DNA of 64,000 nt, from the NCBI GenBank assembly GCA_027486675.1, contig JAIXOQ010000033.1:1-64000 (forward strand), given 5' to 3'. The stretch is from Pseudomonadota bacterium (GTDB lineage Bacteria; Bdellovibrionota; UBA1018; CAIMNF01). The number at the start of each line of letters is the position of its first letter. Position 1 is the stretch's first letter. The position numbers were made by a program, and so were the translations under genes. A model generated the notes under the pieces. It did not search any database. It had not been told where the DNA came from and saw only the letters and a program-made list of their open reading frames with translations. Positions 52,321-61,234 of this stretch are shown here, one piece after another.

Positions 52321-53223
52321 GTTCTCGATACTTCTCTTCGTTTCATGAACGAAGCTGTAAATTTGGGAATACCTACCTATTGGTCCGAACCAACATTAAT
52401 TCTAGCATCGCATGAACCGAATGCACTGCGTGTGAGAAGGTATAGTGGAGATTTTAAACTCGGTGAAATTGAACTTGTCCCTGCGTCACAGTTTTGGCAG
52501 GCGCATTACCGGGTAGATCCGCCCGTGAACGATGCGTACTTTGCCCCGCTTGCTGTGCTGGAGCGTGCGCTCGGGGATCGGGTGATGAATCCTCCCGCAC
52601 TTTTGCGAAATCAAAGTGAAAAAATCCCTCCTGAGTCGCTGAAAGAGTTCAGACCGGTCACGGTGACTCTAGGGTCTGCGAAAGACTTAAGGTTGGCTTG
52701 GGATGAACTGGTGAACATCCAGGAACTGGTGGTGAAACCCTGGGGCGAAGCCCAAAGCAAGGGCGTGCACCGCGTGAAAAAACCAAATGACTTTTCTGCA
52801 TGGGAGGCATTGGTGAATCAGGAGACCCAGGCGTTCACACGCACGGTCGTGATCCAGGAATTTTTGGATGGGATCGAGCGGGGCGAACTTCGGTCCTGGT
52901 TTATTTTTGGAAAATTCTTAGGAGCACTGCGCAAACATCCACTGCCCAATGACTTCCTGGTATCGGTCGATGCTGGCTCCCGCCTGGAGCGGTATGACGT
53001 TAAGCTCGAAGACAAGCGTGAGCTGGATGCCTTGGGAGCGGTGCTTATGGCCCAAGGCGCAGCCCTCGCTGCGATTGATTGGATCCCAGGCCCGGGGAAG
53101 AGCGGATTTTCAGGCGCAAAGATTTCGGACTACAACATCACATCGCCAGGACTGCTGGTCCAGATGGAGCAACTTCACGGAAAGAACTTTGCTGCAGAAG
53201 CGATTGGGTGGCTGCGGCGGTGA
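52276..53223 (+). CDS. glutathione synthetase-like ATP-grasp protein
   Basis: The N-terminal D..(x)..DTS..FMNEA pattern and C-terminal ATP-grasp resemble GshB. GTG at 52276 would overlap the divergent slt 5' end by 45 nt; alternative ATG at 52345. Confidence 0.5.
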   Translation: MSWLWITDEWSSLDHVLDTSLRFMNEAVNLGIPTYWSEPTLILASHEPNALRVRRYSGDFKLGEIELVPASQFWQAHYRVDPPVNDAYFAPLAVLERALGDRVMNPPALLRNQSEKIPPESLKEFRPVTVTLGSAKDLRLAWDELVNIQELVVKPWGEAQSKGVHRVKKPNDFSAWEALVNQETQAFTRTVVIQEFLDGIERGELRSWFIFGKFLGALRKHPLPNDFLVSVDAGSRLERYDVKLEDKRELDALGAVLMAQGAALAAIDWIPGPGKSGFSGAKISDYNITSPGLLVQMEQLHGKNFAAEAIGWLRR

Positions 53224-53251: not shown

Positions 53252-53620
53252 CTACTTTTTTGCAGGAAGAGCTGCAGGCGCTTTGCACTGTCCACCGACG
53301 CTCACTAGCGGCGACACACAGCCTGACTTGATCGGGAGCGTAGTCACAGGGCGCGCTATCCCTTTCGATGGGCCTGCCGCGCCGCCATTCTGAGAGCTGG
53401 TGCTCCGAAGGACCTCGCTCTCTCCGCCACAAGCTTTCGATGCATCGGCCCAACAATTCTTTTCGGTGTCAGTCCGGCCATTGCCTTCAGTCCCATTTTT
53501 GCAGGTCCAAGAACAGGACCAACCGGTCTCATACTTGTACGCTCTGCTTTGCTCCGGAAAAAAAACAGCAGTAATCACGGTAATAAAGAGAAAGGAGTAA
53601 AACTTGTTTATCTTCTTCAT
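53252..53620 (-). CDS. small secreted cysteine-rich protein (operon gene 3)
   Basis: Signal peptide; SCSWTCKNG...NCWADASKACGGE pattern shared with the two upstream genes; ATGA overlap. Confidence 0.55.
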   Translation of the reverse strand: MKKINKFYSFLFITVITAVFFPEQSRAYKYETGWSCSWTCKNGTEGNGRTDTEKNCWADASKACGGESEVLRSTSSQNGGAAGPSKGIARPVTTLPIKSGCVSPLVSVGGQCKAPAALPAKK

Positions 53621-53910
53621 GACTTCTTCCCCTGGATGTTCTGGAATACACTCTTGGGAAGTACATTCTTGGGAATCGCTTTGCGCTCATTGCAGCTGCT
53701 TCCAGACTTCTCTTCGCAGTCGACAGTATCGCAACCACCGGTCGAATTAAAACTACCTGTAGCGCCACTGGAACAGACCCAAGTACATCGACACCCTCCC
53801 GAGTCCATCGCCATACTGCCCCAAGTCCGTTTTGCGAAAGCATCATTCATGAAGAGGGCCGTGAACATGAACGTGATCACCGTAACTTTTGAACCTTTCA
53901 AATTTTTCAT
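53617..53910 (-). CDS. small secreted cysteine-rich protein (operon gene 2)
   Basis: Signal peptide; CRCTWVCSSG...GGCDTVDCEEKSGSSC. Confidence 0.55.
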   Translation of the reverse strand: MKNLKGSKVTVITFMFTALFMNDAFAKRTWGSMAMDSGGCRCTWVCSSGATGSFNSTGGCDTVDCEEKSGSSCNERKAIPKNVLPKSVFQNIQGKKS

Positions 53911-54179
53911 TTCGAGGCCCCATTCTGCAGCACCGTAATCGCAGGCTTCGTCAAAGTAGTTCCGCCCTTAACTGCAATTTTTTCACCACAGGCATTAATT
54001 GCCGTAGTCCTGCAATTCAGTGCATTCGCCCACTCCCCAAGCTGCTGGCTTCCTGAATTGCCGTTGTCACACGTGTATGTGCAATACTTAGAATTATTCA
54101 TGTCCACTTGTTTAAGTGCAAAAGCGGGACTCACTGAAAACAACATCGCAAAAACCGAAACCATAATCATCAACTTCAT
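53907..54179 (-). CDS. small secreted cysteine-rich protein (operon gene 1)
   Basis: Signal peptide MKLMIMVSVFAMLFSVSPAFA; YCTYTCDNG...NCRTTAINACGEK. Confidence 0.55.
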   Translation of the reverse strand: MKLMIMVSVFAMLFSVSPAFALKQVDMNNSKYCTYTCDNGNSGSQQLGEWANALNCRTTAINACGEKIAVKGGTTLTKPAITVLQNGASK

Positions 54180-54385: not shown

Positions 54386-54454
54386 ATAGGGAATCTCTGA
54401 TTCCGGCTGAAGACTGGCCCGCTCCTGGGTTTACAACCCTGCTTTCTGCACTGC

Positions 54455-54468
54455 CGTTTCCGGAAACG
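54455..54468 (+). promoter_or_regulatory. 14-bp perfect palindrome CGTTTCCGGAAACG upstream of cassette copy 1
   Basis: Identical palindrome recurs upstream of copy 3 (57681-57694) within a conserved ~90-bp block. Confidence 0.35.
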
Positions 54469-54515
54469 AAAACTTCCTAAGTGTTTCATGAGCCTAGCCT
54501 AGGCAACTTTCGCCA

Positions 54516-54543
54516 TTGACGAGCCCCCCCCCCAATCTAAATT
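54516..54543 (+). promoter_or_regulatory. putative promoter TTGACG-N16-TAAATT with a 10-C homopolymer in the spacer
   Basis: Conserved in all three cassette copies; C10 tract at 54524-54533. Confidence 0.4.
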
Positions 54544-54606
54544 GGAAAAGTTGCCAGGGCGGGTGGTCTGTCGGGGCGGGATAACTTTTAGGGAGATAAA
54601 ACCGAG

Positions 54607-54954
54607 ATGAAAAAGATTTTTGGACTCATGGCGTTTGGGATGGTGTTGGTTGCGGGGACTGCGGAGGCACGCAATTACGCCTGCTTTAACTGTAAAGTGG
54701 GTCAACCCTGCAAAGTGGACCTATTGGTCACTGTTACGAACTCAAATGGCACAGTTACAACCAGTACAGAGTCTATCAATGGAATCGGGGTCAGGGACGG
54801 AAGCGGCACAGCTTGTGGCGCGCGCGTAGCGACCGCCGCGCTTCCGCTTGGGAGCCGACTTGTGCCACAAACAAACTGCACCGGAGGCGCGGTAGCGGTA
54901 GCCGGTATGTGCGCTAAGGCATCAATCGCAGTCTCGGCAACACCAACAAAATAA
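54607..54954 (+). CDS. secreted cysteine-rich protein, cassette copy 1 (conserved signal peptide, variable mature domain)
   Basis: MKKIFGLMAFGMVLVAGTAEA|RNYACFNCKVGQPCK...; RBS TAGGGAGAT. Confidence 0.6.
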   Translation: MKKIFGLMAFGMVLVAGTAEARNYACFNCKVGQPCKVDLLVTVTNSNGTVTTSTESINGIGVRDGSGTACGARVATAALPLGSRLVPQTNCTGGAVAVAGMCAKASIAVSATPTK

Positions 54955-54979
54955 CCGCCCTCAATCATTCAATTGATAT

Positions 54980-55022
54980 CGGGCCCTGGGACCAGACCTT
55001 GTCTGCCCGGGGCTTCTTTTTG
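54980..55022 (+). terminator. strong rho-independent terminator (conserved with the copy 2 terminator)
   Basis: gggccctgggaccagacc/ggtctgcccggggc bulged stem + TTCTTTTT. Confidence 0.65.
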
Positions 55023-55115
55023 CGTGTGCTCGCCACACGATTTGCCTATGGTAAACTTCCAAAAATGCAGGCCTTGCTTCAGTGGAACTATCGCTCTTTT
55101 CCGCTGGGAGAAACC

Positions 55116-55382
55116 ATGAACATTCAGATGGTGAATTTCGGAGAGTTTTTAATGTCGCGCCCAGCTGGACATGTGGCAGCGCAAATCATCGTTGAGAATT
55201 TCAGACCTGCTTCCCACGACTAAGTCATTGAGCTCGACTTTCTTAACGTGAAAGCAATCGGTCCATCTTGGTTGCACGAAGTGGTCAAGGGACTGCGCGG
55301 CAAGTACCCAAACAAAATCCAAGTTTTAGATCAAGGCAATGCCTCCGTGATTGAGTCGCTCAAGTTTGTCGACCTTCGGTAG
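55116..55382 (+). pseudogene. STAS-like (DUF4325) gene inactivated by an in-frame TAA (GAA>TAA at codon 36)
   Basis: About 90% nt identity to the intact gene at 57341-57607. Upstream, 55065-55115 keeps only the first and last codons of the GHKL ATPase gene (internal deletion), producing the chimeric ORF 54999-55223. Confidence 0.65.
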
Positions 55383-55519
55383 TTACGGCCTGAGTAAGAA
55401 CCAGATCATTTGGGTTGCACGTCCAGCGCATCAAGCGCAACTTCTGTTGCACCCAAAAAGTAACAATTCTTCATCTCTAAATCTTGGTCTCACCCTGGGG
55501 TTTTTTGTGCCGAAATCAG

Positions 55520-55915
55520 TCAATCCCCGTACACATCAAACTTCAATGTAGATCGTGCGTGAAGCAGCTTCTTATCCAAAGTCCACAGCGGTACTTTGTA
55601 TTCAGCCGCAAGCGTTCCAATCAGACAGTCTAAGGTCCCCAAAGTGATGCCGTTTTTCCTGGCCCGGAAATAATTCCACGCTGCCTGCCCCCAATGACGA
55701 TCTGTGACTTCCAGAAATTCAAAACCCAGCATGTACTCCCAGAGACTATGAAAAATTTCAGGCGTCCGGGCACCCTGGCAAACTTCTACGTGTATCGGAC
55801 GCACAATGCAGATCGCTGCGTTGTTCTTGATCATACGCTTAAGTCTCATGCACTCCGGATTCTTCGGAAGTGATCCTGCAATCCAAACCGAACTATCGAC
55901 GAGCACGGGTTGCAT
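55520..55915 (-). CDS. vapC: type II toxin VapC (PIN domain)
   Basis: VLVDSSVWI N-terminal PIN motif; conserved acidic residues. Confidence 0.7.
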   Translation of the reverse strand: MQPVLVDSSVWIAGSLPKNPECMRLKRMIKNNAAICIVRPIHVEVCQGARTPEIFHSLWEYMLGFEFLEVTDRHWGQAAWNYFRARKNGITLGTLDCLIGTLAAEYKVPLWTLDKKLLHARSTLKFDVYGD

Positions 55916-56108
55916 TGTTTGACCCTTTTTTCGTCACGGCACTTGAATCAAAGAAGTCCGTCCCAAGCATCTCAAACATACCCTGCCTTCTGCTTTGAGC
56001 GATCAGCGCATCAAGCGCATTGTTCAAGGTCTCTTTGATTGAATTCGTCCCGCCTAGTTTCCGGGCCAAATTTAACTTCTCTTCATCAAGCTCAACTGAG
56101 GTCTTCAT
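55893..56108 (-). CDS. vapB: type II antitoxin VapB (ribbon-helix-helix/Rv0623-like)
   Basis: 71 aa; MKTSVELDEEKLNLARKLGG...; overlaps the vapC start. Confidence 0.6.
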   Translation of the reverse strand: MKTSVELDEEKLNLARKLGGTNSIKETLNNALDALIAQSRRQGMFEMLGTDFFDSSAVTKKGSNNATRARR

Positions 56109-56226
56109 ATATCAAATATCTCCGTATCAGATATATTGTATCACAGCAGCATGGATCGCGATTCAGCGTGAACTGGGAATTAGTTCTTTAATAAAAACAA
56201 ACACTTACGGCGCGCAATTTTCACCA

Positions 56227-56254
56227 TTGACGAACCCCCCCCCCAATCTAAATT
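56227..56254 (+). promoter_or_regulatory. putative promoter TTGACG-N16-TAAATT with C10 tract in the spacer (copy 2)
   Basis: C10 at 56235-56244. Confidence 0.4.
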
Positions 56255-56319
56255 GGAAAAGTTGCCAGGGCGGGCGGTCTGCCGGGGCGCGCTCTTAACT
56301 TTATGGAGATTTAACCGAG

Positions 56320-56649
56320 ATGATGAAGATTTTTGGGCTCATGGCGTTTGGGATGTTGGTGATGGCAGGGAATGCGGAGGCAGACGTTAAATGTGATCCT
56401 TATCAAGGTAGAGGTTTCAAGTGTAGCGGCACCCTTGCCTGCGGGAAATCATTCTTAGTGATAGAGCTACAGGGAGGTGGAGGCGGCAGTTGGCACTGCA
56501 GCGCCACTCGCGTCGGTCAAAGCCCAGACATTGTGACAGGTGGTTCACCCATTTCTTCACTCCCTCAATCAACAGTGCAGCAGCTTCCTGCCGATCTTAA
56601 GGCTAAGGTGCAAGCAGCTCAGCAAAAAGCCGCAGCACCAAAAAAGTAA
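56320..56649 (+). CDS. secreted cysteine-rich protein, cassette copy 2
   Basis: MMKIFGLMAFGMLVMAGNAEA|DVKCDPYQGRGFKCSGTLACGK...; K/A-rich C-terminal tail. Confidence 0.6.
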   Translation: MMKIFGLMAFGMLVMAGNAEADVKCDPYQGRGFKCSGTLACGKSFLVIELQGGGGGSWHCSATRVGQSPDIVTGGSPISSLPQSTVQQLPADLKAKVQAAQQKAAAPKK

Positions 56650-56675
56650 CCGCTCTTAATCGTTCGATTCATTTC

Positions 56676-56717
56676 CGGCCCCGGGACCAGACCTGGTCTG
56701 CCCGGGGCTTCTTTTTG
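56676..56717 (+). terminator. strong rho-independent terminator
   Basis: gccccgggaccagacc/ggtctgcccggggc (14 bp with 1-nt bulge) + TTCTTTTT. Confidence 0.7.
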
Positions 56718-56759
56718 CCAGTGCGACGCCACACTGAGTGTCTATGATAAACTTCAAAA

Positions 56760-57344
56760 ATGCAGGCCTTGCTTGAATGGCACTTTTCCACAAAACCTCA
56801 AACAGACAACGCCGAGGTTTCTGGAACTAGAGATGTTTTTGAAGCTCGGTCTCAAAAAGTATTTTCTGCTCTTCTAAAACATGGTTTTACCGAATCTGAT
56901 GCAAGCCTGGTCTATTCAATCATTGGAGAACTCGGCAATAACTCCTTTGACCACAATCTCGGTTTTTGGCGCGATCAGCCCGGCTGTTACTTCAGTTTTG
57001 AGTTCGATGCTTCGGGCGTAACCCTTGGACTGGCAGACCGCGGACGTGGGATCTTTAACTCGCTCAAGAGAGTCCTTCCAGAACTCCAGAGCGACCAAGA
57101 GGCAATCGAAATTGCTTTTCAAAGAGTCATCTCAGGTCGCGCCCCTGAGCAGCGTGGTAATGGACTTAAATTTGTGCGGGCGATCATCAATGGCAATCCA
57201 AAACGAGGGCTTGTAGCTCGTTCTGGCACAGGTCTACTCGCCTGTGGTGGCCATGCAAGTTGGATCGCTACGACATCGAACTCACTTTTTTCGGAACCCA
57301 CCGTAGGCGGCACAATCGCTCTTATTCGCTGGGAGAAACCATGA
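56760..57344 (+). CDS. GHKL-superfamily ATPase (HATPase_c; anti-sigma-factor/partner-switching kinase-like)
   Basis: N-box ELGNNSFDH, G1 box DRGRGI, G2 box GNGLKF; 194 aa with no sensor or transmitter domain. Confidence 0.6.
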   Translation: MQALLEWHFSTKPQTDNAEVSGTRDVFEARSQKVFSALLKHGFTESDASLVYSIIGELGNNSFDHNLGFWRDQPGCYFSFEFDASGVTLGLADRGRGIFNSLKRVLPELQSDQEAIEIAFQRVISGRAPEQRGNGLKFVRAIINGNPKRGLVARSGTGLLACGGHASWIATTSNSLFSEPTVGGTIALIRWEKP

Positions 57345-57607
57345 AAATACAGATGGTGAAATTTGGAGAGTTTTTGATGTCGCGCCCAGCGGGACATGAA
57401 GCGGCGCAAATCATCGTTGAAAATTTCAGACCCGCGTCCCACGACGAAGTGATTGAGCTCGACTTTCTGAACGTGAAAGCAATCGGCCCATCCTGGTTGC
57501 ACGAAGTGGTCAAAGGACTGCGTGGCAGTTACCCAAACCAGATCCAAGTTTTAGATCAAGGCAATGCCTCCGTGATTGAGTCACTCAAGTTTGTCGATCT
57601 TCGGTAG
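57341..57607 (+). CDS. STAS-like domain protein (DUF4325-like), translationally coupled to the upstream ATPase
   Basis: ATGA start/stop overlap; GGGAGA RBS; MKIQMVKFGEFLMSRPAGHEAAQIIVENF...IELDFLNVKAIGPSWLHEVV. Confidence 0.55.
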   Translation: MKIQMVKFGEFLMSRPAGHEAAQIIVENFRPASHDEVIELDFLNVKAIGPSWLHEVVKGLRGSYPNQIQVLDQGNASVIESLKFVDLR

Positions 57608-57680
57608 CTGCGGCCCAAGTAAACATCAGATCATTTTGGTTTCACGGCCGGCCGAGCTCGATTGAGCTCCCCAGCACTGC

Positions 57681-57694
57681 CGTTTCCGGAAACG
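57681..57694 (+). promoter_or_regulatory. 14-bp palindrome CGTTTCCGGAAACG upstream of cassette copy 3
   Basis: Second exact occurrence. Confidence 0.35.
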
Positions 57695-57741
57695 AAAATT
57701 TCCTAGGCGTTTCATGACCTTAGCTTAGGCAACTTTTGCCA

Positions 57742-57765
57742 ATGACGAGCCCCCCCATCTAAAGT
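57742..57765 (+). promoter_or_regulatory. degenerate cassette promoter (ATGACG ... TAAAGT) with C7 tract and shortened spacer
   Basis: C7 at 57750-57756; spacer is 12 nt versus 16 nt in copies 1 and 2. Confidence 0.3.
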
Positions 57766-57830
57766 GGAAAAATTGCCGAGGCGGGCGGTCTGCTTCGGCG
57801 CGGGATAATATGTAGGGAGATCATACAGAA

Positions 57831-58082
57831 ATGATGAAGATTTTTGGGCTCATGGCGTTAGGGATGGTGGTGTTGGCAGGGGCTGCGGAGGCGAAGCGAA
57901 TTTGCAGACAAGGATCTCCAGCAACTGGATGTTCGATAGAGTGCACATCCCAAAGTTCCAACGATTGTACTATTGCGTGCACTGGATCTCAGTGCCGTGT
58001 TATCAGATCGGGTGGCCCCGATTATTATGGGGAGTGCTACGGCAAAGCTGTTCAAAAGAACAACACTGCTGCTTCCAAATAA
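57831..58082 (+). CDS. secreted cysteine-rich protein, cassette copy 3 (8 Cys)
   Basis: MMKIFGLMALGMVVLAGAAEA|KRICRQGSPATGCSIECTSQSSNDCTIACTGSQC... Confidence 0.55.
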   Translation: MMKIFGLMALGMVVLAGAAEAKRICRQGSPATGCSIECTSQSSNDCTIACTGSQCRVIRSGGPDYYGECYGKAVQKNNTAASK

Positions 58083-58207: not shown

Positions 58208-58444
58208 TCACTTCACGCACTTTCCACTGGAGAGCTTCAGTCCTGCATCGCATTTACCCGAGGCGCAGGCCTGGCCGAGTGCGCACTCTGTCTTTGAGGA
58301 CGACGTGCCTACAGTAACCGGAACAGGCCTACAGTTGCCGCGATCCGGTACATAACCAGGAGGACACTTCCGGTCCGTGGTGGCCCCGAAGGAACTGGAA
58401 CAACAAACTAACCCCAAAAAAACCATGAAACCAAAAGTTCTCAT
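58208..58444 (-). CDS. small secreted cysteine-rich protein
   Basis: Signal peptide MRTFGFMVFLGLVCCSSSFG; mature region with 6 Cys. Confidence 0.5.
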   Translation of the reverse strand: MRTFGFMVFLGLVCCSSSFGATTDRKCPPGYVPDRGNCRPVPVTVGTSSSKTECALGQACASGKCDAGLKLSSGKCVK

Positions 58445-58473
58445 TGTTGCCTCCTAGATCCCTAAAACTTCAG

Positions 58474-58812
58474 TTATCTACACTGACCAGCACCTAACTT
58501 TTTCCCTGGGAGACACACACTGCCAGGCAGTGCAATCTTCCCGCGCGCCTTACAGTTAAAGTAGAAACGGCTCTGCTTACCTACGAAAGCGGTTGGCGAA
58601 CAAGCCATTGCGCCAGTCAAGTCTGCTACGTCTTCATTTCTGCTATTACAGCAGGAAAGTGCGCGAGTATTGTGTTCCGACGTAAAAAGGCACAAAACAG
58701 GCCCGCTTGTCGCATTCGGAGTCGTCATAAACTGACGTGACGCATTGTCCGACGGTATACAAGTTTGAGCACCTGCCGAAATGGATAAAAGAGCGCTAAG
58801 TAGAATGATCAT
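58474..58812 (-). CDS. small secreted cysteine-rich protein
   Basis: Signal peptide MIILLSALLSISAGAQT; 8 Cys including CC. Confidence 0.5.
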   Translation of the reverse strand: MIILLSALLSISAGAQTCIPSDNASRQFMTTPNATSGPVLCLFTSEHNTRALSCCNSRNEDVADLTGAMACSPTAFVGKQSRFYFNCKARGKIALPGSVCLPGKKLGAGQCR

Positions 58813-58898: not shown

Positions 58899-60533
58899 TC
58901 AGGGAGAGGCAGGCATTATCCCCTGCCCGAAAATCACCCCACGCTGAGGACCTCGAAGCGGAAGGTCTTCCCACGAAGTGCTCGATACCAAACACTCGCC
59001 CATCAGTTTTGCGCCTGCGAGCTGAGGATCGGTGTGCTTTGGGATGATCTTCTCTTCCGTCACCTCAAACTTTGAACCCCGAAGCTTGAGGCACGACAAA
59101 CCCTTAAAACCGCGATCTAGGCAAGTCAGCATGCGTCCAAAGTCATAGGCCTGGGAACACTGCAAATCCCGTCCCAGTCGCATCTGTGAAAAAATACGTT
59201 CATCGCTATAGTTAGGGCGCTCCGCTTCACTCAAAACACTTCTGTAGTCATTTCCATGGATCAAGGCAGAACAACCCGGAAGATGTTTCGAGCTTTTCGC
59301 GCACAGATAGTCGACATCAAATAGATACTTTTTCAGCGCGCCAAGATAATGATGGATCGCCTCCACATTTTTCCGTCGCCCCCACAGATCGGAACTATGG
59401 TGCGTACTTAAGAAAGCCCCCGTGTAGTCAGCAAGAAACTGCACACGAACAATCAAATCCCGAACCCGCGAAACTTCAGCTGCGTAAAATGCGAGTGTAC
59501 GGCACGCACTTTTGATCGACTGGCGATCTGGACTTGACACTAACTCATCCTCGTCATTTTCGTAATCGAGGAGAGTATTGTATTTGACGTACTTCGCCCT
59601 GAGCGGTGGGATGACTTTACTATTTTTGATTTCTGTCTCTGCACGTTTGAGAAACGCCTGAAAGACATTAGAAAACATCTGATCCCCTGAAAAAGAAAGG
59701 GCATCAAAGGTCAAAAGTTGGGATGCATCTTCGGGTGTCGCCATAGAACTCTTGGGTCCCGACGATTCCGCCTCAGCAATAAGCACAGGGAGGTTCGTCC
59801 TCACTTGCAATTCAAGATTCGAGTCTTCGCTTGAAACTCGTTTCTTTCGATTCAGGGAATAACTCAATTTTAAGATCTTGTCAGCCTCCTCCCGAGAGAG
59901 AACTTTCCCCAGTAGTTCCCCCGTAGGATTCAACAATTTATCCAGCTCAGCAATCGCATCGACCTGCGTACCGCGTGTCTCATCCTTGCTTTGCTTTTTT
60001 CGGATCAAGAGTAGATCCAGGACGTAGCCCTCCTGGACAACTGAGAGATAGCCAAAGCCGCATTTTTGCCGAAATGAGGCGACACTTGATTTTAATTGGT
60101 CAAGGTCACTCGGGATCATTTTGTACTCTGCTTCGGAATGAACATCCCGAAATAGCTCTAATCGGATATGGCGAACTTCACTTTCATTTGACCCCAAAAT
60201 GGATCGACTTACGCCCACCTTAAGGGCATCACCGACAGCCATCCCTGAAGAGGTAGCAAGCTCAAGCTCGCTAAAAGAAGAAATTTTGGAGTTGGAATAA
60301 CGAACACTAAACTCACCCAAATTTCTTAAACTGGGTATTTCGAAGCCTACCGCATTCTGCTCAACGCAAGTGCCCGCCTTGAAGTCACCGGTATAGACAT
60401 CAGCAGCTTGCCCATTAAAGACGCTTTCCTGCATGAGACTTACGTCGAGCACATCGACGGAGGACGCGCCAAAGGCATGATTTCCTTGGAATATCGCAAC
60501 CATCAGACCACACACCCCGAAGAGCTTAAACAT
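58899..60533 (-). CDS. large hypothetical secreted protein (544 aa)
   Basis: Start taken at MFKLFGVCGLMVAIFQGNHAFGA signal peptide; no family recognised. Confidence 0.5.
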   Translation of the reverse strand: MFKLFGVCGLMVAIFQGNHAFGASSVDVLDVSLMQESVFNGQAADVYTGDFKAGTCVEQNAVGFEIPSLRNLGEFSVRYSNSKISSFSELELATSSGMAVGDALKVGVSRSILGSNESEVRHIRLELFRDVHSEAEYKMIPSDLDQLKSSVASFRQKCGFGYLSVVQEGYVLDLLLIRKKQSKDETRGTQVDAIAELDKLLNPTGELLGKVLSREEADKILKLSYSLNRKKRVSSEDSNLELQVRTNLPVLIAEAESSGPKSSMATPEDASQLLTFDALSFSGDQMFSNVFQAFLKRAETEIKNSKVIPPLRAKYVKYNTLLDYENDEDELVSSPDRQSIKSACRTLAFYAAEVSRVRDLIVRVQFLADYTGAFLSTHHSSDLWGRRKNVEAIHHYLGALKKYLFDVDYLCAKSSKHLPGCSALIHGNDYRSVLSEAERPNYSDERIFSQMRLGRDLQCSQAYDFGRMLTCLDRGFKGLSCLKLRGSKFEVTEEKIIPKHTDPQLAGAKLMGECLVSSTSWEDLPLRGPQRGVIFGQGIMPASP

Positions 60534-60580
60534 GGGACCGAATACTATAGAATTTCGATCTAAAGTACAATCCATTGAAA

Positions 60581-61234
60581 TCAAAGACTCACCCACGGGT
60601 TTGGGATGCGCGCAAAGACCGGCACAATCGCAATTTCTGTAAATCCTTGCTTGAGAAACTGTGGGGTAGAAGTCTTGGGCTGCGTCATCGCCACCTCGAC
60701 TCTGACCTGATGGACATTTGCGAGCCTGTACGACCGTGCGCGCATCAAATCCGCGTAAAGCCCCTCTTTCCTCCGTTCAGGCACCACAAAAGCACCCCGG
60801 AGGTACGCTTGATCCGCGACTTGAAAAGAACTCACCCCACCCACGATATCGCCGCCTTCTTCCACAATCAGCGTTTCGTGCCTTGAGTCATTGAGTAAAA
60901 AATACGTCGACTCTATAAGCTGATTCTTAAAATTAGGGTGGATCTGCCAAGCGCGGATTTTACTTTCAACAAAGCGAGGCACGTCTTTCACTTCAAGGAT
61001 CCGAAACCGATTCATATCGGGGCAGATCAGTTTCGCTGGATCCAGCGACCGCATCAGCGCGCGGATCTGAATCACCTCCAGCACTTTGCATTCATCTACA
61101 AGATATCGGTGTAAATCCGGATGCGAACAGGGCCAGAGATGAATCGTGAAATTTGCACTTCTGCGATCATACGCATCGATCACCGCACGAATCTCATGAA
61201 ACCGAGACGGGGGCAGACGCATTCTTGTGATCAA
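60581..61234 (-). CDS. GNAT family N-acetyltransferase-like protein
   Basis: C-terminal IVGGVSSF...AYLRGAFVVPERRKEGLYADLM acetyl-CoA-binding-like motif. Confidence 0.5.
   Translation of the reverse strand: MITRMRLPPSRFHEIRAVIDAYDRRSANFTIHLWPCSHPDLHRYLVDECKVLEVIQIRALMRSLDPAKLICPDMNRFRILEVKDVPRFVESKIRAWQIHPNFKNQLIESTYFLLNDSRHETLIVEEGGDIVGGVSSFQVADQAYLRGAFVVPERRKEGLYADLMRARSYRLANVHQVRVEVAMTQPKTSTPQFLKQGFTEIAIVPVFARIPNPWVSL

What the first reader, a model, noticed from the sequence alone, without database searches (positions are those of the whole stretch)
54450..58082. Thrice-repeated cassette: conserved promoter + conserved signal peptide + hypervariable Cys-rich secreted domain
Three plus-strand genes (54607-54954, 56320-56649, 57831-58082) share about 150 bp of near-identical upstream sequence and a near-identical 21-aa signal peptide (MKKIFGLMAFGMVLVAGTAEA, MMKIFGLMAFGMLVMAGNAEA, MMKIFGLMALGMVVLAGAAEA). 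Downstream of the signal-peptidase site the mature domains are unrelated in sequence and length (94, 88 and 62 aa; 6, 4 and 8 Cys). A conserved export leader fused to a diversified cysteine-rich payload is the architecture of bacteriocin, toxin and effector families, and of animal toxin gene families. I do not recognise these proteins as a named family.
Basis: seen in the sequence. Interest (0 to 1): 0.85.

Follow-up and report, generated by a model that had tools for sequence, protein, structure and literature searches.

The report
Repeated promoter-leader module with swapped secreted payloads
An uncultured Bdellovibrionota bacterium carries a tandem array in which the same promoter (with an unstable run of C's) and the same export signal are joined to three unrelated small cysteine-rich proteins, which looks like a switchable, recombining set of secreted proteins of unknown function.

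Summary
Genes A (54607-54954), B (56320-56649) and C (57831-58082) share 108-160 nt of upstream DNA and a 21-aa Sec/SPase-I signal peptide. Their mature parts show no similarity at protein, DNA or any-frame level.

- The repeat is a tandem unit of about 1.5-1.7 kb: module, payload, terminator, HATPase-like gene, DUF4325 gene. A and B are also conserved 3' of the payload, so the payload is a bounded, replaced segment.
- Each module holds a poly-C tract (10, 10 and 7 C) between sigma-70-like hexamers. These include the only G/C runs longer than 7 in 64 kb.
- Two contigs from related strains carry the module after the same DUF4325 gene, with 9 and 10 C, mosaic UTR/leader combinations and a sharply diverged payload.

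The payloads are orphans: no Pfam, NCBIfam, PDB, PADLOC or PHROG match, and 0 hits for A among 1.84 billion representatives.

Best reading: a lineage-specific family of exported disulfide-rich proteins. The payloads were exchanged by recombination between conserved flanks, and expression is probably switched by poly-C slippage. It works like Mycoplasma vlp/vsp systems but is not a member of them. The toxin or bacteriocin function is untested.

The parts
54448..54606 (+). 5' module of cassette A. It comprises the distal part (D4, 54448-54515), the -35-like TTGACG (54516-54521), poly-C10 (54524-54533), the -10-like TAAATT (54538-54543), a 5'UTR stem-loop (about 54553-54577) and the RBS AGGGAG (54590-54595).
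54607..54954 (+). Gene A, 115 aa. Signal peptide at 54607-54669 (MKKIFGLMAFGMVLVAGTAEA). Unique payload at 54670-54936 (6 Cys). The last codons and stop (54937-54954) are shared with B.
54981..55022 (+). Intrinsic-terminator hairpin plus T-run after gene A. It is conserved with the terminator after B.
   Evidence: (D3)
55066..55382 (+). Decayed remainder of unit A. The HATPase-like gene has an internal deletion of about 530 nt (start fused to end, 55066-55115). The DUF4325 pseudogene (55116-55382) has an in-frame TAA at codon 36.
   Evidence: (D6, D1)
55520..56108 (-). VapC (PIN, 55520-55915) and VapB (55893-56108) toxin-antitoxin pair. It is inserted between unit A and module B and replaces the distal part of module B.
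56214..56319 (+). 5' module of cassette B, with the distal part missing. It comprises TTGACG (56227-56232), poly-C10 (56235-56244), TAAATT (56249-56254), the UTR stem-loop and the RBS.
56320..56649 (+). Gene B, 109 aa. Signal peptide at 56320-56382. Unique payload at 56383-56631 (4 Cys, Lys/Ala/Gln-rich tail). The tail and stop are shared with A. The terminator lies at about 56676-56717.
56760..57344 (+). HATPase_c_2-like protein (194 aa). It is the intact copy and part of the duplicated unit.
57341..57607 (+). DUF4325 (STAS-like) protein, 88 aa. It is the intact copy and overlaps the HATPase-like stop codon.
57674..57830 (+). 5' module of cassette C. The distal part is present, the tract is poly-C7 (57750-57756), and the -10-like hexamer is TAAAGT (57760-57765). 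TTGACG is mutated to ATGACG and a new TTGCCA (57736-57741) lies 18 nt upstream of the -10.
   Evidence: (D4)
57831..58082 (+). Gene C, 83 aa. Signal peptide at 57831-57893. Unique payload at 57894-58082 (7 Cys). There is no conserved 3' flank.
53252..54179 (-). Three paralogous small Cys-rich secreted ORFs with a different leader (53252-53620, 53617-53910, 53907-54179). They form the left part of the same island.
   Evidence: (z > 6 for the pairs with 53907-54179; z = 2.6 between the other two)
58208..58812 (-). Two further small Cys-rich secreted ORFs (58208-58444, 58474-58812). They form the right part of the island.

Best explanation
This is a tandem array of a unit of about 1.5-1.7 kb, made of a promoter/5'UTR/signal-peptide module, a payload, a terminator, an HATPase-like gene and a DUF4325 gene. 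It lies in a strain-variable island of an uncultured Bdellovibrionota chromosome.

Each module drives a small protein that is exported by the Sec pathway and cut by signal peptidase I after A-E-A. This releases a 62-94-aa cysteine-rich, presumably disulfide-bonded, product into the periplasm or medium.

The three payloads are not diverged copies of one another. They are segments that were exchanged or replaced by recombination, with the conserved module (and, for A and B, the conserved tail and terminator) acting as homology arms. Gene conversion also shuffles UTR and leader variants between paralogues.

The 7-10-nt poly-C tract lies between the -35-like and -10-like hexamers. Its length, and so the promoter spacing, is prone to slipped-strand change. 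Each paralogue is therefore probably switched or tuned stochastically, as at a contingency locus.

What is shown: the architecture, the boundaries, the orphan status, the mosaicism and the tract-length difference between strains. What is inferred: export, the promoter assignment, phase variation and recombinational replacement. The biological role is unknown. My guess is a variable protein at the interface with prey, competitors or phages.

Sub-confidences:
- architecture: 0.95
- Sec export: 0.8
- replacement rather than gradual divergence: 0.7
- poly-C-mediated switching: 0.45
- toxin or effector role: 0.25
For: Module and leader. They are conserved in 3 window copies and 2 foreign contigs.

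Payload boundaries. Both are sharp in A versus B. Identity is 0.77-1.00 from -108 to about +65. It falls to alignment noise from +69 to +333 and returns to 0.77-0.90 from +334 to +480 (D3 and D6).

Neutral clock. The DUF4325 pseudogene of unit A is 90.6% identical to the intact copy, with 16 synonymous and 6 non-synonymous codon differences including a stop. The payloads, in contrast, show no detectable similarity in protein, DNA or any frame. No other copy of any payload exists in the window.

Cross-strain comparison at the C locus. The DUF4325 gene is about 96% identical, the intergenic region, module and leader are 82-88%, and identity drops to 47-60% immediately after the cleavage site. 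The Cys spacing is nevertheless kept: C-x9-C-x3-C against C-x8-C-x3-C.

Mosaicism.
- The L008 leader is 61/63 identical to window B but only 56/63 to the syntenic C.
- The L008 proximal UTR is C-like (27/32, against 19/32 to B).
- L009 combines an A/C-type distal part with a B-type RBS region and leader.

Poly-C.
- Only 4 G/C runs of 7 or more occur in 64 kb, and three of them are in the modules, including both runs of 10.
- The tracts lie inside TTGACG-N16-TAAATT.
- At the orthologous position the length is 7, 9 and 10 in three strains.
- In C, the spacer that is 4 nt shorter coincides with loss of TTGACG and gain of TTGCCA 6 nt upstream, which restores an 18-nt spacer.

Coding.
- Open frames of 62, 88 and 94 codons follow the leader. 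By my own estimate at a stop frequency of about 0.047 per codon, the joint chance is about 1e-5.
- An RBS and terminators are present.
- Frame 0 has the best codon score for A and B.

Leader. It has a basic n-region (MKK or MMK), a 14-residue hydrophobic core and A-x-A at positions -3 and -1. There is no lipobox Cys (read from the sequence).
Against: - No expression, export or switching data exist.
- The promoter hexamers are consensus matches only (9 of 12).
- Tract-length differences between strains are expected for any homopolymer and do not prove high-frequency switching within a population.
- There are only five module copies. Of the cross-strain payload, only about 20 codons are trustworthy, because L008 is chimeric from about nt 790.
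- The codon score of payload C is not best in frame 0.
- A and C are absent from the public protein collection, and B is present only as a Logan gene call. Gene callers therefore mostly missed them or chose other starts.
- Old duplicates whose flanks are kept alike by gene conversion would give the same static pattern as payload replacement.
- The AlphaFold models were too poor to test for a hidden common fold (pLDDT 56 and 47).
Confidence: 0.5

Rival explanations
1. This is an ordinary tandem gene duplication. The mature domains then diverged very fast by point mutation and indels under positive selection. The promoter, leader and 3' flank stayed alike through purifying selection or concerted evolution. 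The poly-C tract is incidental.
For: The whole unit, including the downstream genes, is clearly duplicated in tandem. All payloads are small, Cys-rich and end in a short Lys-containing tail. The orthologous C payload in L008 is recognisably related yet strongly diverged, so fast divergence does occur here.
Against: At the divergence of the adjacent pseudogene (9.4% nt), neutral change would leave the payloads easily alignable. They are at noise level in DNA and protein, and they differ in length and Cys pattern. Both boundaries are abrupt. Mosaic UTR/leader combinations show that recombination is active in the module.
Confidence: 0.25
2. This is a Sec-dependent bacteriocin or toxin family. Each cassette encodes an antimicrobial or prey-directed peptide, and the conserved leader only ensures export.
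For: The products are small and Cys-rich, carry a conserved leader on diversified mature parts, and are clustered in a variable island with five more such ORFs. The organism belongs to a phylum that includes predators (the predatory habit is background knowledge, not tested).
Against: There is no immunity-like small membrane protein, ABC or C39 exporter, or modification enzyme next to any cassette. No toxin, bacteriocin or defence profile matches. The leader is an ordinary SPase-I signal, not a double-glycine leader. Activity is untested.
Confidence: 0.15
3. The payload ORFs are not real genes. The repeated module is the remnant 5' end of a decayed gene family, or a regulatory or RNA element, and the downstream open frames are fortuitous.
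For: The codon scores are weaker than for housekeeping genes: 0.12, 0.06 and -0.15, against 0.26 +/- 0.08. A and C are absent from the public protein collection and B is present only as a Logan gene call. There are no homologues anywhere.
Against: Three independent open frames of 62-94 codons start at a conserved RBS, ATG and signal peptide, and two end just before a strong terminator. The Cys positions are kept in the diverged L008 orthologue. The other small Cys-rich ORFs of the island score similarly and three of them are paralogues. No Rfam family matches the region.
Confidence: 0.07
4. The repeat is an assembly artefact.
For: The source is probably a metagenome-assembled contig, and short-read assemblies break at this repeat. 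L001 begins inside the module, just 3' of B's poly-C tract.
Against: The copies differ by 10-20% and have different flanks. L001 reproduces unit B at 100%. L008 and L009, from other samples, show the same DUF4325-module-leader junction. The start of L001 is explained by the 40-nt stretch that is identical in A and B; that this exceeds the assembler's k-mer length is my inference.
Confidence: 0.01

Closest known systems
Mycoplasma variable surface lipoprotein families: M. hyorhinis vlp, M. bovis vsp, M. agalactiae vpma
   Same: They are clustered paralogues with a highly conserved 5' untranslated region and signal-peptide-coding region. Beyond these the coding sequences share no significant homology. 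In vlp, indels in a homopolymer in the spacer between -35 and -10 turn transcription ON or OFF (PMC2268961, introduction, citing Citti and Wise 1995, Lysnyansky 1999 and Glew 2002).
   Different: Here the leader is an SPase-I signal without a lipobox Cys. The mature parts are Cys-rich and lack internal tandem repeats. There is no site-specific recombinase nearby. The tract is poly-C rather than poly-A or poly-T. The host is a diderm environmental Bdellovibrionota rather than a wall-less animal pathogen. There is also a conserved 3' flank.
Promoter-located homopolymer contingency loci of Gram-negative pathogens, such as Neisseria porA (poly-G) and opc (poly-C) and Bordetella fim2/fim3 (poly-C). 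These examples are recalled from my own knowledge, not from a tool result.
   Same: A G/C homopolymer of about 7-15 nt in or next to the promoter spacer sets the distance between promoter elements, so slippage changes expression. Several paralogues each carry their own tract.
   Different: Those genes encode known porins, adhesins or fimbrial subunits that are homologous to one another. Switching has been measured there and has not been measured here.
Families with a conserved leader and a hypervariable mature peptide, such as conotoxin superfamilies, double-glycine bacteriocins, and ComC or AgrD pherotype alleles (my own knowledge).
   Same: The export or processing leader is conserved at the nucleotide level. 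The mature part is extremely diverged and often Cys-rich. Allelic forms are exchanged between conserved flanks.
   Different: There is no dedicated processing, export or receptor gene nearby. The leader is a generic Sec signal. No sequence relationship to any of these families was found.
Partner-switching-like pair of an HATPase_c_2 protein and a DUF4325 (STAS-like) protein. This is the passenger gene pair of the duplicated unit.
   Same: The pair, with overlapping genes, is widespread: 3487 relatives of the HATPase-like protein were found. In all five relatives' loci fetched, a DUF4325 gene follows immediately.
   Different: In the more distant relatives (L003-L007) the pair has no leader cassette next to it. 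The link to the cassettes is therefore specific to this lineage and may come from co-duplication only.

Membership tests
SSR-mediated contingency locus (promoter type) | Simple-sequence repeat of hypermutable length (G/C homopolymer of about 7 or more) | tested here: met
   The tracts are C10, C10 and C7. There are only 4 G/C runs of 7 or more in 64 kb, and 3 of them lie in the modules.
SSR-mediated contingency locus (promoter type) | Repeat located between or next to promoter elements, so that its length sets the spacing | tested here: inconclusive
   The tract lies inside TTGACG-N16-TAAATT. This is a consensus match only, 9 of 12. The transcription start is not mapped.
SSR-mediated contingency locus (promoter type) | Tract length polymorphic among strains or within a population | tested here: inconclusive
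   Between strains, the position after DUF4325 holds 7, 9 and 10 C. Within-population heterogeneity needs raw reads, which are not available here.
SSR-mediated contingency locus (promoter type) | Expression switches with tract length | not testable with these tools
   This needs reporter fusions or RNA-seq of length variants.
Mycoplasma Vlp/Vsp/Vpma-type variable lipoproteins | Conserved 5'UTR and signal peptide, with unrelated mature regions among clustered paralogues | tested here: met
   family description from PMC2268961
Mycoplasma Vlp/Vsp/Vpma-type variable lipoproteins | Prolipoprotein signal with a lipobox Cys at +1 | tested here: not met
   The leaders end in AGTAEA|R, AGNAEA|D and AGAAEA|K. 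No Cys is at +1.
Mycoplasma Vlp/Vsp/Vpma-type variable lipoproteins | Tandem repeats in the mature region, or a site-specific recombinase in the locus | tested here: not met
   TRF finds no repeats in the payloads. No recombinase domain was found in the island ORFs that were scanned.
Bacteriocin gene cluster (class II or Sec-dependent) | Double-glycine leader with a C39-ABC exporter, or a Sec leader with an adjacent immunity gene | tested here: not met
   The leader is an SPase-I type. The neighbours are the HATPase-like gene, DUF4325, VapBC and other small secreted ORFs.
Bacteriocin gene cluster (class II or Sec-dependent) | Antimicrobial activity of the mature peptide | not testable with these tools
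   This needs peptide synthesis and an activity assay.
Diversity-generating retroelement target | Reverse transcriptase plus a template repeat that matches the variable region with adenine-specific differences | tested here: not met
   No second copy of any payload segment exists in the window. There is no RT-like ORF in 52-61 kb. The payloads differ in length and are unalignable.
Polymorphic toxin systems (Rhs, CDI and similar) | Large conserved N-terminal delivery region, a variable C-terminal toxin domain and a cognate immunity gene | tested here: not met
   The conserved part is only a 21-aa signal peptide. There are no toxin or immunity profile hits.

The most novel reading that the evidence does not exclude
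The conserved promoter-leader module and the conserved tail-terminator act as homology arms of a payload-exchange system. Unrelated secreted-protein segments are captured and swapped between strains and between paralogues. Each slot is independently switched by poly-C slippage. This would give a lineage of (possibly predatory) Bdellovibrionota a combinatorial, stochastically expressed repertoire of extracellular proteins. It would be a contingency-locus strategy previously associated with host-adapted pathogens, now seen in an environmental bacterium.
Probability: 0.25. Interest if true: 0.8.

Novelty: new variant of a known kind. Interest (0 to 1): 0.58.

Why it matters
Promoter homopolymers combined with a shared 5' module on unrelated secreted proteins are classic in Mycoplasma, Neisseria and Bordetella. 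There they drive immune or phage evasion. A full-text search found no paper that combines Bdellovibrio with phase variation, homopolymeric tracts or contingency loci.

If the poly-C tracts do switch expression, this island would show that bet-hedging of secreted or surface repertoires operates in an uncultured environmental lineage. It would also point to the molecules that this lineage varies at its interface with prey, competitors or phages.

The payloads are complete orphans, so they are also candidates for new small disulfide-rich folds.

The claim can be tested directly from existing reads (tract-length heterogeneity) and with simple reporter constructs.

Tried and rejected
- Leader searches. 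The leader, back-translated to a degenerate 30-mer, gave 0 hits in GTDB representative genomes, JGI metagenome contigs and IMG/VR. The conserved 5'UTR motif gave 0 hits in metagenome contigs.
- Synteny search in genomes. The flanking GSH-S-like protein gave only an unrelated 33% hit in genome contigs.
- Homologues of the payloads. A profile of the three proteins against 5.8 billion proteins returned only B itself. phmmer of A against 1.84 billion representatives gave 0 hits.
- Family libraries. Pfam, NCBIfam, PADLOC, PHROGs and PDB sequence searches gave nothing above the cut-offs for A, B or C.
- Structure. AlphaFold2 single-sequence models of C and A had pLDDT 56 and 47. I did not run fold searches, because they would be meaningless on such models.
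- RNA. Rfam finds only a tRNA in the window.
- 5'UTR stem-loop. It is conserved, with 88% of cells paired and 2 compensatory pairs. It is not significant with five sequences (55 of 500 shuffles reach the observed values) and is no more stable than shuffles.
- HATPase/DUF4325 link. In more distant relatives the pair has no cassette next to it, so I rejected the idea that the pair is an obligatory partner.
- Mobile-element origin. There is no plasmid match.
- DGR or silent donor cassettes. None were found.
- Start of L001. I first took its start just 3' of the poly-C tract as a hint of tract instability. I rejected this, because the 40-nt identity between A and B explains the assembly break.
- Exact-protein look-ups of A, B (first Met) and C (both starts) found no record.

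Full report
**Observation**

ORF listing and repeat finding confirm three + strand genes: A (54607-54954), B (56320-56649) and C (57831-58082). Their leaders are MKKIFGLMAFGMVLVAGTAEA, MMKIFGLMAFGMLVMAGNAEA and MMKIFGLMALGMVVLAGAAEA. A direct-repeat family covers their 5' ends (D2 and D4).

A 30-nt leader probe hits only these three sites in 64 kb, against 0 in 100 shuffles. The multiple alignment shows conservation from about -108 (all three) or about -160 (A and C) up to the codon for the last Ala of the leader. After that point nothing aligns.

Nucleotide local alignments and all six-frame comparisons are at noise level as well.

A and B are also alike downstream of the payload. The shared parts are:
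- the last five or six codons, the stop codon and a strong terminator hairpin (D3, 85% over 93 nt);
- the start of the next gene (D6);
- a 300-nt stretch that is 90% identical (D1).

In unit B these downstream genes are intact. They are an HATPase_c_2-like protein (56760-57344) and an overlapping DUF4325 (STAS-like) protein (57341-57607). In unit A the HATPase-like gene has lost about 530 nt internally, and the DUF4325 copy carries an in-frame stop at codon 36.

Module C starts 66 nt after the intact DUF4325 gene. The corresponding junction after the pseudogene of unit A is interrupted by a VapBC pair (55520-56108, minus strand). This explains why module B lacks the distal 70 nt that A and C share.

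The structure is therefore a tandem array of a unit of about 1.5-1.7 kb: module, payload, terminator, HATPase-like gene, DUF4325 gene.

**Why the payloads were replaced rather than gradually diverged**

The pseudogene offers a local neutral clock. It is 90.6% identical to the intact copy, with 16 synonymous and 6 non-synonymous codon differences. At that age, neutrally evolving payloads would still be roughly 75-90% identical in DNA; this figure is my inference. Instead they are unalignable, differ in length and have different Cys patterns. The change happens within a few nucleotides at both boundaries. No other copy of any payload exists in the window, so there are no silent donor cassettes and no DGR-type template repeat.

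**Evidence from other strains**

The 90%-identity cluster of the DUF4325 protein contains a second sequence, found on two short metagenome contigs. These are L008 (JGI 3300045554) and L009 (ENA ERZ28593726). Both continue from the DUF4325 gene into the same module and leader.

Against the window, identity changes along the locus as follows:
- the DUF4325 gene is about 96% identical;
- the intergenic region, module and leader are 82-88% identical;
- identity drops to 47-60% right after the cleavage site.

The L008 payload begins RKKCRVNETAAGGCTVDC. Window C begins KRICRQGSPATGCSIEC. The payload is thus recognisably orthologous, with the Cys spacing kept but the sequence strongly diverged. L008 becomes 70-76% GC from about nt 790 and is chimeric beyond that point.

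The modules are mosaics:
- The L008 leader is 61/63 identical to window B but only 56/63 to the syntenic C.
- The L008 RBS-proximal UTR is C-like (27/32, against 19/32 to B).
- L009 joins an A/C-type distal part to a B-type RBS region and leader.

Recombination or gene conversion between paralogous modules is thus active.

A more distant syntenic contig (L010) is 80% identical to the window over 8.3 kb. It loses similarity near the 3' end of the GSH-S-like gene (last aligned base 53215; the gene ends at 53223). It carries a 469-aa FG-GAP protein where the island lies here. The island is therefore a strain-variable region.

A crude scan shows that every ORF of 50-160 aa in the window with a signal-like N-terminus and at least 4 Cys lies between 53252 and 58444. 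An eighth such ORF lies at 58474-58812. Among the three minus-strand ORFs at 53252-54179, 53907-54179 is clearly related to the other two (z > 6); the remaining pair is weaker (z = 2.6).

**The poly-C tract**

Each module contains a C run: 10 C at 54524-54533, 10 C at 56235-56244 and 7 C at 57750-57756. The whole window has only four G/C homopolymers of 7 or more, and none longer than 7 outside the modules.

In A, B and L009 the run sits inside TTGACG-N16-TAAATT. In L008 the tract has 9 C and the spacer is 15 nt. In C the spacer is 4 nt shorter, TTGACG has become ATGACG, and a C-to-T change 6 nt upstream creates TTGCCA at 18 nt from the -10-like TAAAGT. This looks like compensation that preserves a promoter.

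At the position after DUF4325 the tract is 7, 9 and 10 C in three strains. This is the sequence signature of a promoter-type contingency locus. Switching itself is not shown.

A 10-bp stem-loop in the 5'UTR is conserved, with 88% of cells paired and two compensatory pairs. With five sequences it is not significant (55 of 500 shuffles reach the observed values), and it is no more stable than shuffles.

**Are they genes, and what are they?**

Three lines of evidence support coding:
- an RBS (AGGGAG or ATGGAG) lies 12 nt upstream of the ATG;
- open frames run 62-94 codons beyond the leader, and two are followed by terminators;
- the Cys positions are kept in the L008 orthologue.

Codon scores are best in frame 0 for A and B but weak, and they are ambiguous for C. 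The other Cys-rich ORFs of the island score similarly.

The leader has a basic n-region, a 14-residue hydrophobic core and A-x-A at positions -3 and -1, with no lipobox. This indicates Sec export and SPase I cleavage; I read this from the sequence and ran no predictor.

No family could be assigned:
- Pfam and NCBIfam give nothing above the cut-offs.
- PADLOC and PHROGs give nothing.
- PDB sequence searches give nothing.
- The 5.8-billion-protein search returns only B itself.
- phmmer of A against 1.84 billion representatives gives 0 hits.
- The AlphaFold models were unusable.

**Organism**

PrfC has a 98% match in a Logan assembly. Its next hits are at 77%, and the best named hits are Bdellovibrionales or Bdellovibrionota MAGs at 71-76%. 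The neighbours are chromosomal housekeeping genes: RNR alpha, prfC, fadD, slt and pheT. The region has ordinary GC content and no plasmid or virus match.

**Comparison with known systems**

The closest functional analogue is the Mycoplasma vlp/vsp/vpma type of family. In those families the 5'UTR and signal peptide are conserved and there is no homology beyond them. In vlp, indels in the spacer between -35 and -10 switch transcription ON or OFF (PMC2268961).

This locus fails membership of that family. It has no lipoprotein signal, no tandem repeats in the mature region and no recombinase. It also fails the defining features of bacteriocin clusters, DGR targets and polymorphic toxins.

It is best called a new variant of a promoter-SSR multigene family, found in an environmental Bdellovibrionota lineage. 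A literature search found no paper that links Bdellovibrio with SSR phase variation.

**Verdict**

The feature is real, lineage-specific and structurally more interesting than reported, because of the bounded payload, the mosaic modules and the poly-C tract. The function and the switching are only inferred. I score interest at 0.58.

Noticed in passing
window 53252-54179 (-), 58208-58812 (-): Five more small Cys-rich ORFs with signal peptides flank the cassettes. 53907-54179 is clearly related to 53252-53620 and to 53617-53910 (SW z > 6); those two are only weakly alike (z = 2.6). All ORFs of this kind in the 64-kb window lie within 53.2-58.8 kb. The mature part of A is weakly similar to 53252-53620 (z = 2.6), mainly in a C-terminal LP..S...C..GG.C motif.
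   Followed up: partly
window 53215-53223; L010 8255-10221: Synteny with a related contig (80% nt over 8.3 kb) ends near the 3' end of the GSH-S-like gene. The relative has a 469-aa FG-GAP protein where the island lies here. The island is therefore a strain-variable insertion or replacement zone.
   Followed up: partly
window 55520-56108 (-): A VapB/VapC (PIN) toxin-antitoxin pair sits between unit A and module B. It appears to have replaced the distal 70 nt of module B.
   Followed up: partly
window 56760-57607; L003-L007: The HATPase_c_2-like and DUF4325 (STAS-like) overlapping gene pair is widespread: 3487 relatives of the HATPase-like protein were found. In some lineages the HATPase-like protein is fused to a winged-helix DNA-binding domain. 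In L007 the pair lies next to integrase, TrbI and FtsK genes. Its function is unknown, and PHROG 3364 matches the HATPase-like protein at 7e-13.
   Followed up: partly
window 54502-54510 and 54547-54555 (also in the other modules): A perfect 9-bp inverted repeat, GGCAACTTT / AAAGTTGCC, straddles the -35, poly-C and -10 region. It could be a binding site for a dimeric regulator. It is partly conserved in B, C and L009.
   Followed up: no
window 54460-54475 and 57686-57701: The palindrome TTTCCGGAAA lies in the distal part of modules A and C, and also in L008 and L009. It is another candidate regulator site.
   Followed up: no
window 58899-60596 (-): A 565-aa ORF bordering the island has no Pfam, NCBIfam, PADLOC or PHROG match.
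   Followed up: no
L008 790-1206: The JGI contig is chimeric. GC content jumps from about 50% to 70-76% shortly after the start of the payload, so only about 20 codons of that payload can be trusted.
   Followed up: yes
L004 7560-7950: In a relative (62% identical HATPase-like protein), the pair is preceded by tRNA-like sequence fragments, and three assemblies end 144 nt after the DUF4325 gene. This hints at a repeat or integration hotspot there.
   Followed up: no
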